DNA of 11,321 nt from a virus. Taxonomy: Duplodnaviria; Heunggongvirae; Uroviricota; Caudoviricetes. Positions within the stretch are counted from its first letter, which is position 1, and the number at the start of each line of letters is the position of its first letter. Where the stretch lies: IMG/VR virus record IMGVR_UViG_2671180814_000016, one strand, 5' to 3'. The position numbers were made by a program, and so were the translations under genes. Positions 1-6,765 of the stretch are shown here, one piece after another. Under the pieces are notes generated by a model. It was not told the DNA's origin, did not search any database, and saw only the letters and a program-made list of their open reading frames with translations.

Positions 1-1494
<1,494 letters not shown>

Positions 1495-3352: not shown

Positions 3353-3904
3353 TTATCCTATTAATTTTTCACATTGCTCAAAACGCATTGGCCTGAACTC
3401 TCCCTGTACCGCCCATACACCGGCCTCTCTGAGAATTGGGTAATACGTTTTATCTCTGACGGGTACGATCACCTTCTCGCAGTACTGGCGAATGCTTTTT
3501 ATGAGTACTGGAAAGATCAGACGGTCAATGTTCTCTTCTGTGTACCTTCTATTTAATCGGGCAACCTCGAAATCACCTGTAACCAGAGGAATAGCAGAAC
3601 CACCATGTACACCGAGATCATCAAGCCACTGCTGGTTATGTACTTTCATATCCCTTGTCATCTGCCGAAGGAATGGTAAGTACTCGTATGGTTCACCACG
3701 GCCAGTAGTAATCACACAATACAAACCGTTATCCCTGAACCATGCCGCCTTGCTTTCAATAAGCATTAGTTGCCCATGAAGTACTTCTTCTTCCCATAGG
3801 CCGATCTGCCTGATTCCCTCGCGTTCTACATGGCTGACCAACTCAACCCCCAGCAACTGACCACCCAAACTTGTTATCGGTATTGCCCAATTATCAATGT
3901 TCAT
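3353..3904 (-). CDS. EAL-domain-like protein, probably catalytically degenerate (YdiV/PdeH-like motif order), 183 aa
   Basis: Motifs in EAL order and spacing: AIPITSLGGQLLGVELVSH (EAL box as ELV, Arg missing), QWLDDLGVHGG (DDFGTG-like), RQYCEKVIVPVRD (where EGVE is expected, substituted), AVQGEF (QG[YW]F-like). About 55 aa shorter than a canonical EAL domain. Assigned from recalled family motifs, not a search. Confidence 0.55.
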   Translation of the reverse strand: MNIDNWAIPITSLGGQLLGVELVSHVEREGIRQIGLWEEEVLHGQLMLIESKAAWFRDNGLYCVITTGRGEPYEYLPFLRQMTRDMKVHNQQWLDDLGVHGGSAIPLVTGDFEVARLNRRYTEENIDRLIFPVLIKSIRQYCEKVIVPVRDKTYYPILREAGVWAVQGEFRPMRFEQCEKLIG

Positions 3905-3936
3905 AACTTTGCTCGTTACGCTTTAAGTTATTGATA

Positions 3937-3989
3937 ATTGATCATTTTTAAAACATTGGCAATTAAATCGATCAATTTTATTGATCATT
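3937..3989. promoter_or_regulatory. Operator-like repeats containing three GATC sites: 10-mer ATTGATCATT twice (3937..3946, 3980..3989) and palindrome GATCAAT-TTT-ATTGATC (3970..3986)
   Basis: Read directly in the 192-bp divergent intergenic region between the EAL-like gene (minus) and the LexA-box gene (plus). Three GATC tetramers within 50 bp of AT-rich DNA. Confidence 0.45.
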
Positions 3990-4055
3990 ACAATAGAATT
4001 AATCATTCAAAGTGGTAAACAAAGGGGTGCTGGATTTTTGGGAAACTGACTGCAA

Positions 4056-4075
4056 TACTGTACATATATACAGTA
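4056..4075 (+). promoter_or_regulatory. LexA (SOS) box TACTGTACATATATACAGTA
   Basis: Exact CTGT-N8-ACAG with AT-rich spacer and palindromic TA flanks. Differs from the E. coli consensus TACTGTATATATATACAGTA at one spacer position. Lies 21 bp upstream of the ATG at 4097 and 7 bp upstream of a strong SD (GAGGAGGG), where it would overlap the promoter. Confidence 0.7.
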
Positions 4076-4096
4076 ATACATAGAGGAGGGTAACAA

Positions 4097-4408
4097 ATGA
4101 GCAAAGACGGCTATGATCCATCCATTACGCGAGGGGTTCAGAAGTTCTCACATAACGGTCGCTGGGCAACCGTGTGTTATTGGGGATCTGCACTAACAGA
4201 ATTTCATTATGGGGATAGGGTATTCTTCCAGAATCAGTACAGGGAATACTGGTTAGGTACTATAGAGAGAGATTGTTTTGTACTTACCTGTGAAACACCA
4301 CTAATAAGTGTTATTGATGGGTTAGCATATCTATCTGCTGAGTACCGGATGAATCAAAGCAGTGAAGAAGGTGATTGGTTCTGTGATCAGGGGGAACTAC
4401 CCTTCTGA
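4097..4408 (+). CDS. Hypothetical 103-aa protein, predicted SOS-regulated
   Basis: ATG start with strong SD GAGGAGGG 6 nt upstream; LexA box immediately upstream. No TM segment. C-terminal EEGDWFCDQGE faintly recalls the DinI C-terminus (DDWF), which is too weak to assign. Confidence 0.7.
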   Translation: MSKDGYDPSITRGVQKFSHNGRWATVCYWGSALTEFHYGDRVFFQNQYREYWLGTIERDCFVLTCETPLISVIDGLAYLSAEYRMNQSSEEGDWFCDQGELPF

Positions 4409-4540: not shown

Positions 4541-5209
4541 ATGGATTGTAGAAAATTAAATATCGTTCTTTTATCGACCGTAGCAGTATTACTGGTTGTT
4601 GTAATTTTAGTACTAATAAAATCACTCTTTGTTGGTTCTGAAGGTTTCGAGTGGGGATCGGTTAGTGACTGGGTTAGTTCTATTGCCAATCTCATTATGG
4701 CTGGAGCAGCCCTATATGCAGCATGGAACGCTAAAAATTGGTTTCAAACTAAAATAAAGGAAAATGCTTTAAATCAAGTTACTAAGTTCTGGACTAATTG
4801 CGATCTTTTTTCGTTGGAGATGTTGAAAACATATGAAAATATATGCAACCTTAACAATACTGAACCAGATATAGAACCAAAAAATTTCGCACATTTAGTT
4901 AAAACTGAACGAGAAGTTATCGATCTATTAAACATTAAGTTAGCCTCATTAAAAAGCGAATTGCAATCACTTACCTTTTGGAAAGTATCGCCAAAAGATG
5001 AAGCTATATTCAATAATTATTTCTTCAGTAATCAAATTGCTTTAGGAACATTGAGGGAAGCGATAAGTTTTGATATAAATGACATTCATGATAGATATCA
5101 TTACAATGTCAGCTATGGAAAGTTATTAGTAGATACATTTGATAGTTTAATAGAAGCACATGCAACCTTGAAAAAGGACATGAATAACTTATTCGTTTTC
5201 TCTAATTAG
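4541..5209 (+). CDS. Membrane protein: two N-terminal TM helices plus ~150-aa soluble domain, unknown function
   Basis: 222-aa ORF with ATG start; weak SD (AGGA 10 nt upstream). TM segments LNIVLLSTVAVLLVVVILVLI and VSSIANLIMAGAALYAAW. Very AT-rich and nearly devoid of GTAC, unlike flanking DNA. Confidence 0.6.
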   Translation: MDCRKLNIVLLSTVAVLLVVVILVLIKSLFVGSEGFEWGSVSDWVSSIANLIMAGAALYAAWNAKNWFQTKIKENALNQVTKFWTNCDLFSLEMLKTYENICNLNNTEPDIEPKNFAHLVKTEREVIDLLNIKLASLKSELQSLTFWKVSPKDEAIFNNYFFSNQIALGTLREAISFDINDIHDRYHYNVSYGKLLVDTFDSLIEAHATLKKDMNNLFVFSN

Positions 5210-6021: not shown

Positions 6022-6765
6022 TCAAATTTTATTGCTGTCTTTAAACAACAGTGCTTTTAAACTTTCGACACTTAATACTTCGTTACCGCGATGTACCATT
6101 GCGTGACAGTTTGGACAAAGTGGAACCATATCAGTAATTGGATTTACCTCGTAATCCTCGCCTACTGTGTGTAGCGGTTTGATATGATGAACGTGTATAA
6201 AGCCCTTGGCGTGTTCACCATAGACTTTCTCAAAGTTAAACTCACAACACCCGCAGGAAGTACCATGATGGTCAATACAAGCCTGTCGTGCTTTTGGATC
6301 ACGCTCGTAGGAGTTTACTGTAACTTGCTTTTTTGCACCCTCAGCGTAGTTTTCAGGTGAGGTAATTTCATCTGGAAATGGATTAGGTAAAAAGTCTGCA
6401 TACCAAACTGTTCCTTCTTTCCGAAGGTAACGTTTTTCAAGTTTTGGAGTGAACCGTTTGATAACAGCTACATCTCTATTCTCATCGTTTCGTCCCTGCT
6501 CCATATCAAACGTGTAAAGCTCATAACCTTCAGCTATCAATTGAATGTGTTCAATAGCTTGAATATATCCAAGATTTTTTCTTTCCTTTCCCTCCACAAC
6601 TTTGGTTTTCCACCGCTCCCTCAGAATGACTGATCTTTCTTGCTCTTTTTGTACATCCCATGCACCAAAGATAACCATTTTCTTGTCGTGGTTCACAAAT
6701 GACCAACTCCAAGTCCAGTTACTACAAGTAGCACCATGCGACTGGATGAATTGTTTTCTGTTCAT
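6022..6765 (-). CDS. McrA-like zinc-finger HNH nuclease with an unassigned ~170-aa N-terminal domain
   Basis: 247-aa ORF with ATG start and strong RBS GAGAGGGA. C-terminus CGCCEFNFEKVYGEHAKGFIHVHHIKPLHTVGEDYEVNPITDMVPLCPNCHAMVH matches the CxxC...HH...N...CPNCH..H pattern of McrA-type HNH domains as recalled from E. coli McrA. The N-terminal region matches no domain I can name. Confidence 0.8.
   Translation of the reverse strand: MNRKQFIQSHGATCSNWTWSWSFVNHDKKMVIFGAWDVQKEQERSVILRERWKTKVVEGKERKNLGYIQAIEHIQLIAEGYELYTFDMEQGRNDENRDVAVIKRFTPKLEKRYLRKEGTVWYADFLPNPFPDEITSPENYAEGAKKQVTVNSYERDPKARQACIDHHGTSCGCCEFNFEKVYGEHAKGFIHVHHIKPLHTVGEDYEVNPITDMVPLCPNCHAMVHRGNEVLSVESLKALLFKDSNKI

What the first reader, a model, noticed from the sequence alone, without database searches (positions are those of the whole stretch)
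3905..4096. Divergent control region with clustered GATC palindromes next to the LexA box
Three GATC sites sit within 50 bp inside repeated ATTGATCATT 10-mers and a 7-3-7 palindrome. They lie between the EAL-like operon and the SOS module. Clustered GATC sites in a promoter region suggest Dam-methylation-sensitive regulation or SeqA binding, or they are simply the operator of an unidentified repressor. Together with the LexA box this would place two operons under layered control.
Basis: partly seen in the sequence, partly recalled or inferred. Interest (0 to 1): 0.45.

Follow-up and report, generated by a model that had tools for sequence, protein, structure and literature searches.

The report
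Prophage divergent promoters with IHF/Dam/LexA sites
This 190-bp spacer in a degraded enterobacterial prophage carries two back-to-back promoters: one is shut by the SOS repressor LexA, and the other, which drives a flagella-inhibitor-like gene, is overlapped by a conserved IHF site and flanked by two conserved Dam (GATC) sites, so methylation-sensitive control is plausible but unproven.

Summary
GATC lies at 3940, 3970 and 3983; ATTGATCATT at 3937 and 3980; the 7-3-7 palindrome at 3970-3986; a 19/20 LexA box at 4056-4075. Three GATC in 47 bp is not unusual window-wide (17.6% of shuffles).

Comparison with 19 distinct related intergenic regions (flanking protein 46-89% identical) changes the picture. 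GATC-3940 and GATC-3970 are kept in 18/19 and 17/19; GATC-3970 is a 4-bp island in variable flanks. The third GATC, the other 10-mers and the palindrome are lineage-specific.

The region holds two divergent promoters:
- Minus-strand TTGCCA-17-AATTAT (3962-3934), found at the same position in 19/23 relatives, drives an STM1697/YdiV-like EAL-like gene.
- Plus-strand TGGATT-17-TGcAATACT is overlapped by the LexA box.

A perfect IHF core (TATCAATAACTTA, 3936-3924) with an upstream A-tract overlaps the minus promoter's -10 and start site. It is conserved in 17/19 relatives.

Best reading: the LexA-controlled and the IHF/Dam-modulated promoters are independent. The closest precedent is the IHF-Dam switch at Salmonella intA. 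Fur, OxyR, Lrp and CRP motifs do not exceed chance. No binding or methylation was tested. I rate it a new member of a known kind, of moderate interest.

The parts
3353..3904 (-). orf183: degenerate EAL-like protein, a homologue of Salmonella STM1697 and YdiV (anti-FlhD4C2 factors); first gene of the leftward operon
   Evidence: The family profile hits PDB 5hxg (STM1697) at E 1.4e-28. Foldseek top hits are STM1697-FlhD and YdiV. There is a weak NCBIfam PdeH hit and no Pfam hit.
3924..3936 (-). IHF core consensus TATCAATAACTTA (WATCAANNNNTTR)
   Evidence: It is the only perfect match in the window. It scores 9/9 in 17 of 19 relatives and 8/9 in the other two. The core bases are invariant while two of the four N positions vary.
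3945..3949 (-). A5 tract, 8 nt 5' of the IHF core on the minus strand; the same register as the A-tract of the lambda H' site (H' A-tract recalled from memory)
   Evidence: The sequence is read, and the tract is nearly invariant in relatives. The H' core and the IHF consensus are quoted in PMC2709558.
3934..3962 (-). Predicted sigma-70 promoter of orf183: -35 TTGCCA (3962-3957), 17-bp spacer, -10 AATTAT (3939-3934); inferred start site near 3927 and a leader of about 22 nt containing the Shine-Dalgarno sequence
   Evidence: The consensus scan matches 9/12. The same TTGnnn-17-AATTAT (AATATT in L143) occurs at the same distance from the ATG in 19 of 23 unique relatives. The TTG is kept and the 3' half of the -35 varies.
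3940..3943 (.). GATC-1, in the promoter spacer (about -16 to -13) and inside the expected IHF footprint, 4 bp from the IHF core
   Evidence: It is retained in 18/19 relatives, the 96th percentile of 4-mer retention. Its conservation is not required by the IHF consensus or the -10 hexamer.
3970..3973 (.). GATC-2, just upstream of the -35 (about -46 to -43), 30 bp from GATC-1
   Evidence: It is retained in 17/19 relatives as a 4-bp island with variable flanks. Spacing to GATC-1 is 30-33 bp in all lineages.
3970..3989 (.). Palindrome GATCAAT-TTT-ATTGATC containing GATC-2 and GATC-3, plus the second ATTGATCATT; the right-hand part is lineage-specific
   Evidence: GATC-3983 is retained in 2/19 relatives. 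The palindrome is absent from the closest relatives L094, L010 and L146. A near-copy, GATCGAT-TTT-ATTGATC, lies in an unrelated E. coli island.
4001..4019 (.). Block 3: degenerate copy of an inverted repeat that reads CTACC-N9-GGTAG / ACCACT-TTT-AGTGGT in relatives. Its TGGTAA is the reverse complement of a possible second minus-strand -35 (TTACCA-17-TATTGT).
   Evidence: The alignment shows arms that change together (ACCAC/GTGGT against ATCAC/GTGAT). The possible distal promoter scores 8.0 in the window and 10.2-10.4 in L003 and L005, but it is not universal.
4031..4059 (+). Predicted promoter of orf103: -35 TGGATT (4031-4036), 17-bp spacer, extended -10 TGc-AATACT (4051-4059). In the window lineage an alternative is CTGACT-17-TACAGT (4046-4074).
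   Evidence: TGGATY-17-NATACT is found at the same position in most lineages, and CTGGAT is nearly invariant.
4056..4075 (.). LexA (SOS) box TACTGTACATATATACAGTA overlapping the -10 and start site of the orf103 promoter
   Evidence: It matches the consensus at 19/20, and 0 of 500 shuffles reach that score. It is the only CTGT-N8-ACAG in the window. Relatives score 13-18/20.
4097..4408 (+). orf103: conserved small protein of unknown fold; first gene of the LexA-controlled operon, followed by variable cargo (orf222, 4541-5209, in this window)
   Evidence: It matches phrog_2100 and has 21 homologues. It is modelled at pLDDT 85, but no PDB fold match was found. The cargo genes differ between relatives.

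Best explanation
The 192-bp spacer is the shared control region of two back-to-back promoters in the accessory region of a degraded prophage. That region lies between the integrase and the terminase genes, and the prophage sits at the mipA-yeaG site of Enterobacteriaceae.

(1) Rightward promoter. orf103 and its variable cargo are transcribed from TGGATT-17-TGcAATACT. A near-consensus LexA box covers the -10 and the start site. This operon is therefore off in lysogens and turned on by DNA damage.

(2) Leftward promoter. The STM1697/YdiV-like EAL-like gene and the small membrane and lipoprotein genes behind it are transcribed from TTGCCA-17-AATTAT. A consensus IHF site (A-tract, 8 bp, TATCAATAACTTA) overlaps the -10 and the start site. 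IHF bound there would exclude RNA polymerase, so I infer repression or growth-phase gating.

(3) Dam sites. Two conserved GATC sites bracket the -35. One lies in the spacer, inside the IHF footprint. The other lies about 45 bp upstream of the inferred start site. I infer that their methylation state alters occupancy by IHF, SeqA or polymerase. Expression of the flagella-inhibitor-like gene would then depend on replication or methylation history, as at the Salmonella intA promoter.

The two promoters are controlled separately, not by one layered switch. The third GATC, the palindrome and the extra 10-mers are recent, lineage-specific additions.

Shown: sequence features, their positions, their conservation, and the identity of the flanking genes. 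Inferred: promoter use, IHF binding and its sign, and any Dam effect.
For: - Fixed-position minus-strand promoter in 19/23 relatives, with the TTG kept and the rest of the -35 free to vary.
- The predicted start site sits about 22 nt before the ATG, just upstream of a Shine-Dalgarno sequence in every lineage inspected.
- Perfect IHF core in the window and in 17/19 relatives, with a variable N4 and a conserved A-tract. The consensus is quoted in PMC2709558.
- LexA box at 19/20, conserved, overlapping a conserved extended -10.
- GATC-3940 and GATC-3970 are retained in 18/19 and 17/19 relatives against a mean 4-mer retention of 5.2/19. GATC-3970 is an isolated 4-bp island. Relatives carry 2-5 GATC per ~200 bp against 0.3-1.5 expected (mostly 0.5-0.9).
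- Spacing of 30-33 bp lies at or just beyond the reach of a SeqA dimer (31 bp; PMC6225831).
- Precedent: an IHF site overlapping the -10 plus a nearby GATC form a Dam-IHF switch at Salmonella intA (PMC12455584).
- Hosts are Dam-positive Enterobacteriaceae: Shigella, Escherichia, Enterobacter, Lelliottia, Leclercia and Scandinavium.
Against: - Nothing here measures transcription, IHF binding or methylation.
- A perfect IHF core is expected 1.45 times per window by chance, so the case rests on its position and conservation.
- GATC-3940 sits inside a 14-bp invariant block (ATTGATAATTGATC). Its conservation cannot be separated from that of a longer site for some other protein.
- GATC is lost in a few relatives without loss of the block: L005 has AATC at site 1 and L011 has AATC at site 2.
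- The invariant 8 bp between the A-tract and the IHF core is more conserved than IHF or the -10 requires.
- All hosts are Dam-positive, so there is no natural Dam-negative control.
- A second, upstream minus-strand promoter is possible in some lineages. That would change the position of every site relative to transcription.
Confidence: 0.5

Rival explanations
1. The conserved tandem ATTGATA-ATTGATC, and the TTGATC-type repeats and palindrome upstream, form the operator of a dedicated sequence-specific regulator. That regulator could be encoded by the phage or the host and has not been identified. The GATC tetranucleotides are then simply part of its recognition sequence, and Dam is irrelevant.
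For: - 14 invariant base pairs (3930-3943) exceed what IHF plus a -10 hexamer needs.
- There are four exact ATTGATNATT copies within 100 bp against 0.46 expected.
- A near-copy of the palindrome module lies in an unrelated E. coli island with different flanking genes: 43/55 nt match, including GATCGAT-TTT-ATTGATC and AAAGTGGTAAG.
- Block 3 is an inverted repeat whose arms change together.
Against: - No regulator gene is evident beside the region. orf103 has no DNA-binding fold match, and orf183 is an EAL-like protein.
- The 14-mer occurs only once per element in 247 kb of related DNA, so there is no regulon-like second site.
- The 3980 and 3998 repeats and the palindrome are not conserved even in the closest relatives.
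- GATC-3970 is conserved as a bare 4-bp island, which a longer operator would not predict.
Confidence: 0.22
2. SeqA is the reader. After replication the hemimethylated GATC pair (3940 and 3970, plus 3983 here) binds SeqA, which transiently sequesters the orf183 promoter. IHF plays no part.
For: At least two GATC sites at 13-33 bp spacing occur in every lineage. Two GATC sites up to 31 bp apart suffice for strong SeqA binding (PMC6225831).
Against: - SeqA needs no particular flanking sequence, so this does not explain the invariant IHF-like block.
- A 30-33 bp spacing is at or beyond the stated limit.
- SeqA binding cannot be tested with these tools.
Confidence: 0.1
3. Nucleoid silencing. The 30%-GC spacer is an H-NS nucleation region in horizontally acquired DNA, and IHF may counteract it. 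The GATC sites fall inside an H-NS high-affinity-like motif by accident.
For: - TCGATCAATT (3968-3977) matches the H-NS motif TCGATAAATT at 9/10, and relatives match at 7-9/10. The motif itself is recalled from memory (Lang et al. 2007).
- The spacer is 30% GC.
Against: - A 9/10 match is reached by about 6% of shuffles.
- H-NS binding is degenerate and does not predict base-perfect conservation of GATC or of the 14-mer across lineages with only 46-89% protein identity.
Confidence: 0.1
4. A classical Dam phase-variation switch of the OxyR or Lrp type (agn43, gtr, opvAB, Mu mom, pap), or a Fur-Dam switch (EAEC sci1).
For: Clustered, conserved GATC sites sit in a promoter of a prophage accessory gene in a Dam-positive host. 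GATAAT-like hexamers superficially resemble a Fur box.
Against: Best matches to the consensus sequences are no better than shuffled sequence in the window and in all relatives:
- OxyR 13/20 (P = 0.15)
- Lrp 11/15 (P = 1.0)
- Fur 11/19 (P = 0.94)
- CRP 6/10
Confidence: 0.05
5. The GATC cluster has no function; it is a by-product of AT-rich TTGAT-type promoter sequence and chance.
For: - 17.6% of whole-window shuffles contain an equally dense GATC cluster.
- The third GATC and the palindrome are not conserved.
- -35-like TTGATC hexamers create GATC automatically.
Against: - Two GATC sites are kept at the same aligned positions in 17-18 of 19 relatives.
- GATC is in excess in most lineages: 2-5 observed against 0.3-1.5 expected (mostly 0.5-0.9).
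Confidence: 0.08

Closest known systems
IHF-Dam promoter switch at the Salmonella intA (ST64B-related integrase) promoter (Yang et al., NAR 2025, PMC12455584)
   Same: An IHF motif overlaps a weak sigma-70 -10 element. A GATC lies close upstream on the same promoter. The gene is in a prophage or island setting in a Dam-positive enterobacterium. In that system IHF represses transcription and blocks Dam, and methylation is needed for activity.
   Different: - Here the GATC is 4 bp from the IHF core rather than about 20 bp away.
- There is a second conserved GATC upstream of the -35.
- The gene is an EAL-like anti-FlhDC homologue, not an integrase.
- There is no sequence homology between the two promoters.
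- Nothing has been tested experimentally here.
LexA-repressed prophage accessory or antirepressor promoters (coliphage 186 p95/tum; Gifsy antirepressors)
   Same: A near-consensus SOS box overlaps the promoter of a small phage gene located away from the immunity region. A distant orf103 homologue sits beside a DinI-like gene at the right end of the 186/P2-like phage Cartapus. The comparison with 186 and Gifsy is from memory.
   Different: orf103 has no detectable similarity to Tum or to known antirepressors. It heads an operon with variable cargo. Its function is unknown.
OxyR- or Lrp-dependent Dam phase-variation switches (agn43, P22 gtr, opvAB, Mu mom, pap)
   Same: Two or more conserved GATC sites lie within a few helical turns in the control region of a horizontally acquired gene.
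   Different: There is no OxyR or Lrp motif above chance. The only recognisable site that overlaps a GATC is for IHF. No evidence of ON/OFF switching exists.
Lambda attP H' site (canonical high-affinity IHF site)
   Same: The same layout: A-tract, 8 bp, TATCAA-N4-TTR. The H' core is quoted in PMC2709558; the A-tract register is from memory.
   Different: H' serves recombination. This site overlaps a promoter -10 and start site, and it contains a Dam site in the 8-bp linker.
STM1697 and YdiV (RflP), EAL-like anti-FlhD4C2 proteins of Salmonella and E. coli
   Same: orf183 is a sequence and fold homologue. In Salmonella, STM1697 binds FlhD and restricts flagellar gene expression (PMC5622320 title and abstract).
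   Different: orf183 is shorter (183 aa against 235 aa), prophage-borne and only 25% identical. Its central segment is poorly modelled (residues 69-112, pLDDT below 50). FlhD binding is untested.

Membership tests
LexA (SOS) box of Gammaproteobacteria | Palindrome CTGT-N8-ACAG with a close match to TACTGTATATATATACAGTA | tested here: met
   19/20 at 4056-4075, and 0/500 shuffles reach this score. It is the only CTGT-N8-ACAG in the window.
LexA (SOS) box of Gammaproteobacteria | Overlaps a promoter and is conserved in orthologous regions | tested here: met
   It overlaps the predicted extended -10 TGcAATACT and the start site. It is present at the same place in 18 of the 19 aligned relatives (the L002 copy is degenerate).
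LexA (SOS) box of Gammaproteobacteria | Binds LexA; the gene is induced by DNA damage | not testable with these tools
   This needs an EMSA and mitomycin C or lexA(Def) expression data.
IHF binding site | Core WATCAANNNNTTR (WATCARNNNNTTR) | tested here: met
   TATCAATAACTTA at 3936-3924 on the minus strand. It scores 9/9 in 17/19 relatives. The consensus is quoted in PMC2709558.
IHF binding site | A/T-rich tract on the 5' side of the core | tested here: met
   An A5 tract (3949-3945, minus strand) lies 8 nt upstream and is nearly invariant.
IHF binding site | IHF binds and bends the DNA | not testable with these tools
   This needs an EMSA or a footprint.
Dam-dependent epigenetic (phase-variation) switch | Two or more GATC sites in the control region, conserved | tested here: met
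   GATC-3940 is retained in 18/19 relatives and GATC-3970 in 17/19.
Dam-dependent epigenetic (phase-variation) switch | The GATC sites lie inside binding sites of a methylation-sensitive regulator of the known kinds (OxyR, Lrp, Fur) | tested here: not met
   OxyR 13/20, Lrp 11/15 and Fur 11/19 are all within the shuffle range.
Dam-dependent epigenetic (phase-variation) switch | Stable under-methylation of the GATC sites and heritable ON/OFF states | not testable with these tools
   This needs methylome data and single-cell reporters.
IHF-Dam promoter switch (intA type) | An IHF motif overlapping the -10, with a GATC close upstream in the same promoter | tested here: met
   The IHF core (3924-3936) overlaps the -10 (3934-3939), and a GATC lies at 3940-3943. 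The arrangement is described in PMC12455584.
IHF-Dam promoter switch (intA type) | IHF represses and hinders Dam; methylation is required for activity | not testable with these tools
   This needs ihf and dam mutants and a DpnII-qPCR assay.
SeqA target | At least two GATC sites no more than 31 bp apart | tested here: met
   Spacings are 30 and 13 bp in the window and 14-33 bp in relatives. The criterion is from PMC6225831.
SeqA target | SeqA binds the hemimethylated form | not testable with these tools
   This needs binding assays.
Replication origin or cos site | DnaA boxes or conserved iterons, an adjacent replication or terminase gene, and genome ends mapping here | tested here: not met
   The best DnaA box match is 6/8, no better than shuffles. 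The upstream repeats are not conserved. The terS gene is 3 kb away. The region is fully accounted for by two promoters, ribosome-binding sites and start codons.
EAL-like anti-FlhD4C2 proteins (STM1697/YdiV), for orf183 | Sequence and fold homology to STM1697 or YdiV | tested here: met
   The profile hits 5hxg_A at E 1.4e-28. Foldseek gives 5hxg_A at E 2.6e-10 and 3tlq at E 2.5e-6.
EAL-like anti-FlhD4C2 proteins (STM1697/YdiV), for orf183 | Binds FlhD and lacks c-di-GMP phosphodiesterase activity | not tested
   No complex was modelled and the catalytic residues were not audited.

The most novel reading that the evidence does not exclude
A prophage carries a conserved IHF-Dam epigenetic switch. 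The switch makes expression of an STM1697/YdiV-like anti-FlhD4C2 factor, and hence host motility and flagellin display, depend on the methylation or replication history of the prophage. It sits back-to-back with an SOS-induced operon whose leader protein ends in an invariant clamp-binding-like QGELPF motif. The phage would then reprogram host behaviour through two separate host-state sensors in 190 bp.
Probability: 0.12. Interest if true: 0.6.

Novelty: new member of a known kind. Interest (0 to 1): 0.36.

Why it matters
If the IHF/Dam reading holds, this would be a second, independently evolved example of the recently described IHF-Dam promoter switch. Here it would control a phage-borne homologue of the Salmonella flagella-shutdown proteins, linking prophage epigenetic state to host motility and immune visibility. 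It also defines a compact control cassette, conserved across several genera, that drives a variable cargo hotspot under LexA control. That cassette could help annotate similar prophage accessory islands. If the reading fails, the region is simply an ordinary pair of divergent promoters with an SOS box.

Tried and rejected
- Direct nucleotide matches. Megablast of the window against plasmids and phages found nothing. Among 5,426 complete E. coli genomes only one (AREA_C483) carries the module.
- Rfam. A permissive scan of 3700-4300 gave only meaningless eukaryotic snoRNA and miRNA hits below threshold, so there is no known RNA element.
- Exact scan for the conserved 15-mer ATTGATAATTGATCA in viral contigs. 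It returned more than 120 loci, almost all chance hits in unrelated contigs. Only L041, L072, L090 and L094 belong to the family. The 20-mer palindrome pattern gave no hit.
- Motif tests for Fur, OxyR, Lrp, CRP, DnaA, ArgR and Fis. None was better than shuffled sequence.
- Origin of replication or cos site. Rejected: no DnaA boxes, no conserved iterons, no adjacent replication gene, and the whole spacer is accounted for by promoters and ribosome-binding sites.
- Integrase attP site. Rejected: the serine recombinase gene is 6 kb away.
- orf103 as a DNA-binding regulator of the divergent promoter. There is no HTH and no PDB fold match.
- Literature on STM1697 regulation (YeiE). No binding-site sequence was available to compare.
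- PADLOC gave no defence assignment for orf103 or orf222.
Full report
**1. The observation**

The finding covers the whole spacer between orf183 (3353-3904, minus strand) and orf103 (4097-4408, plus strand).
- GATC at 3940, 3970 and 3983.
- ATTGATCATT at 3937-3946 and 3980-3989, ATTAATCATT at 3998-4007, and ATTGATAATT at 3930-3939.
- A perfect GATCAAT-TTT-ATTGATC palindrome at 3970-3986.
- A single CTGT-N8-ACAG at 4058-4073. Its 20-mer matches the LexA consensus at 19/20.

The statistics are mixed.
- GATC is not enriched in the window (39 observed, 34.9 expected).
- An equally dense GATC cluster appears somewhere in 17.6% of whole-window shuffles.
- Within the 30%-GC spacer, at least 3 GATC is rare (0.16% of shuffles).
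- Exact ATTGATNATT occurs 4 times against 0.46 expected, and all copies lie within 100 bp.

**2. Where the window comes from**

The proteins place the window in Enterobacteriaceae: Shigella sonnei, E. coli, Enterobacter, Lelliottia, Leclercia and Scandinavium. The window is the accessory region of a degraded prophage. It contains:
- an IS2 end at 1-44;
- a Nu1-like small terminase gene at 350-895;
- two HNH genes;
- a large serine recombinase gene that runs off the right end.

Intact relatives share a common gene order:
- prkA/yeaG, then the recombinase gene and small genes, in the same orientation as orf183;
- variable cargo genes and orf103, transcribed away from orf183;
- the spacer studied here;
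- orf183 with small lipoprotein and membrane genes, then terS, terL, portal and protease-capsid genes.

One complete E. coli genome (AREA_C483) has a syntenic, IS-riddled copy next to mipA.

**3. The flanking genes**

orf183 has no Pfam hit. Its family profile, however, hits Salmonella STM1697 at E 1.4e-28. Its model (pLDDT 70) matches STM1697-FlhD and YdiV best, followed by true EAL domains. 'EAL-like' is therefore correct. More precisely, it is a homologue of the anti-FlhD4C2 proteins (PMC5622320).

orf103 matches phrog_2100, is modelled at pLDDT 85, and has no PDB fold match. A distant homologue lies beside a DinI-like gene at the right end of the 186/P2-like phage Cartapus.

**4. Comparative footprint**

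I collected the orthologous spacer from genomes, viral contigs, metagenomes and assemblies. There are 23 unique sequences, whose flanking protein is 46-89% identical to orf183. Twenty of them were aligned as A3. Conservation is concentrated in a few blocks:
- 3924-3926 (TAA), and 3930-3943 (ATTGATAATTGATC, 13 of 14 bases invariant and 3936 nearly so) followed by a T-tract.
- The CA of the -35 region (3960-3961).
- GATC at 3970-3973, an island with variable flanks.
- Part of an inverted repeat around 4001-4019.
- CTGGAT at 4030-4035.
- TGCAATACTGT...ACAG, the LexA box and the bases just 5' of it.

GATC-3940 is retained in 18/19 relatives and GATC-3970 in 17/19. The mean retention of any 4-mer is 5.2/19. 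GATC-3983 is retained in only 2/19. Relatives carry 2-5 GATC in about 200 bp where 0.3-1.5 (mostly 0.5-0.9) are expected. The palindrome and the 3980 and 3998 10-mers differ even in the closest relatives.

**5. Promoters**

The consensus scan finds TTGCCA-17-AATTAT on the minus strand at 3962-3934. A simple weight-matrix scan of all relatives finds TTGnnn-17-AATTAT (AATATT in L143) at the identical distance from the orf183 ATG in 19 of 23 sequences. The TTG is kept, and the 3' half of the -35 varies freely: CCA, ACT, ATC, ATA, ATG, AGT, ATT, CGA, CTA. That is the pattern expected of a real promoter. It places the start near 3927, about 22 nt before the ATG and just upstream of the Shine-Dalgarno sequence.

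On the plus strand, TGGATY-17-(TGn)NATACT recurs at a fixed position in most lineages. In the window it is TGGATT (4031-4036) and TGcAATACT (4051-4059). The LexA box (4056-4075) covers its -10 and start site. The window lineage also offers an alternative, CTGACT-17-TACAGT, and LexA overlaps that one too.

A second, more distal minus-strand promoter (TTACCA-16/17-TATAAT/TATTGT) is possible in some lineages but is not universal.

**6. What overlaps the orf183 promoter**

The minus strand reads AAAAA-TGATCAAT-TATCAATAACTTA. TATCAATAACTTA (3936-3924) is a perfect IHF core (WATCAANNNNTTR). It is the only one in the window, where 1.45 would be expected by chance, so position and conservation carry the argument. 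The core scores 9/9 in 17 of 19 relatives and 8/9 in the other two. The specified bases are invariant, two of the four N positions vary, and the A-tract is conserved. The consensus and the lambda H' core (ttgctTATCAAtttgTTG) are quoted in PMC2709558. That H' has an A6 tract 8 bp upstream is from my memory of the IHF-H' crystal structure.

The core overlaps the -10 hexamer and the start site. Bound IHF would therefore compete with polymerase. GATC-3940 lies in the 8-bp linker of this site, at -16 to -13 of the promoter. GATC-3970 lies at about -46 to -43.

Matches to Fur, OxyR, Lrp, CRP, DnaA, ArgR and Fis consensus sequences are no better than in shuffled sequence, both in the window and in the relatives. 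An H-NS-like TCGATCAATT scores 9/10 (P about 0.06).

**7. Mechanism**

Shown: two conserved divergent promoter-like elements, a strong LexA box on one, a consensus IHF site on the other, and two GATC sites conserved beyond what the IHF, -10 or -35 consensus requires.

Inferred:
- orf103 and its cargo are SOS-induced.
- orf183 is gated by IHF.
- Dam methylation at the two GATC sites modulates IHF, SeqA or polymerase occupancy.

The closest precedent is the Salmonella intA promoter. There, an IHF site overlapping the -10 represses transcription and hinders Dam at a nearby GATC, and methylation is needed for activity (PMC12455584). The 13-33 bp GATC spacings are mostly within the 31-bp reach of a SeqA dimer (PMC6225831), so SeqA remains a candidate reader.

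The LexA box is about 95 bp from the orf183 -35. It should not control that promoter directly, so 'layered control of both operons' is not supported.

**8. Rivals**

An unknown dedicated regulator is the main rival. In its favour:
- The invariant 14-mer is longer than IHF plus a -10 requires.
- Block 3 is an inverted repeat whose arms change together.
- Window 3965-4019 matches an unrelated island of E. coli ES6 at 43 of 55 positions, including GATCGAT-TTT-ATTGATC, although the flanking genes there are different.

Against it:
- No regulator gene is nearby.
- The 14-mer occurs once per element in 247 kb of relatives.
- The upstream repeats are not conserved.

H-NS silencing, a pure SeqA mechanism, classical OxyR/Lrp/Fur-Dam switches, and chance are each less likely. 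An origin of replication or a cos site is rejected.

**9. Verdict**

The region is best described as a conserved bidirectional control cassette of a prophage accessory locus, with one LexA-controlled promoter and one IHF/Dam-flanked promoter. It is a new member of a known kind, of moderate interest, and it needs simple wet-lab tests.

Noticed in passing
window 4097-4408 (orf103), C-terminus encoded at about 4388-4405: Every orf103 homologue retrieved in full ends in ...DWFCDQGELPF or a near variant. Q98, L101, P102 and F103 are invariant. This Q-x-x-L-x-F at the extreme C-terminus resembles beta-clamp-binding motifs (resemblance from memory). The distant Cartapus homologue ends in NYSLFD and sits next to a DinI-like gene. 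This may be an SOS-induced clamp-binding protein.
   Followed up: partly
window 3353-3904 (orf183): A prophage-borne homologue of the Salmonella anti-FlhD4C2 protein STM1697 (profile E 1.4e-28). It suggests that the prophage can dampen host flagellar expression. No paper in the searched library linked EAL-like, prophage and FlhD.
   Followed up: partly
window 4541-5209; L018 5452-7363; L144 1003-2422; L145 1134-2348; L146 8604-9353: The genes downstream of orf103 differ in every lineage. Examples are a 222-aa membrane protein here, a GTPase plus an 8xMP protein, and a DUF2971 protein. This is a variable cargo hotspot behind a conserved LexA-controlled leader gene. PADLOC gave no hit for the cargo in this window.
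   Followed up: partly
L148 6007-6061 (E. coli ES6, NZ_CM184335.1): A 55-nt stretch matches window 3965-4019 at 43/55 positions, including the palindrome GATCGAT-TTT-ATTGATC, a second GATCGATTTTATTAAT repeat and AAAGTGGTAAG. It lies between two unrelated divergent small genes in a different island that carries a small serine recombinase, an AIPR protein and an HNH gene. It may be a mobile regulatory module. The BLAST E-value is only 3e-3.
   Followed up: partly
L147 1018-1060 (upstream of STM1697 itself, in a mislabelled 'phage' record): The promoter region of Salmonella STM1697 also carries two GATC sites 23 bp apart in GATC(A/G)TTTTT repeats, next to TTGATTGAT. This recalls the GATCATTTTT block here, but the orientation relative to the gene is opposite.
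   Followed up: no
window 3888-3898 and 3930-3940: A perfect 11-nt inverted repeat (CAATTATCAAT / ATTGATAATTG, 31 nt apart) brackets the Shine-Dalgarno sequence and start codon of orf183. The left arm is coding (I-D-N-W). The 70%-identity lineage has an analogous CAATGATCAAT arm that would pair with ATTGATCATT. It could be an RNA hairpin in transcripts from a distal promoter, or a coincidence of codon choice.
   Followed up: partly
window 4001-4019; relatives, for example L145 and L002 (alignment A3 columns ~125-145): An inverted repeat (CTACC-N9-GGTAG, or ACCACT-TTT-AGTGGT) lies between the two -35 elements, and its arms change together between lineages (ACCAC/GTGGT against ATCAC/GTGAT). No known factor could be assigned.
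   Followed up: partly
window 6022-6765 (minus strand): The HNH protein gives weak PADLOC hits to Type IV methyl-directed restriction enzymes (E 4.7e-7). That would be notable in an element whose control region is rich in Dam sites.
   Followed up: no
window 1-44 and 350-895; L001; L146 451-4399: The window starts with an IS2 end that replaces the large terminase gene, so this prophage copy is defective. Relatives are integrated between mipA and yeaG/prkA.
   Followed up: partly
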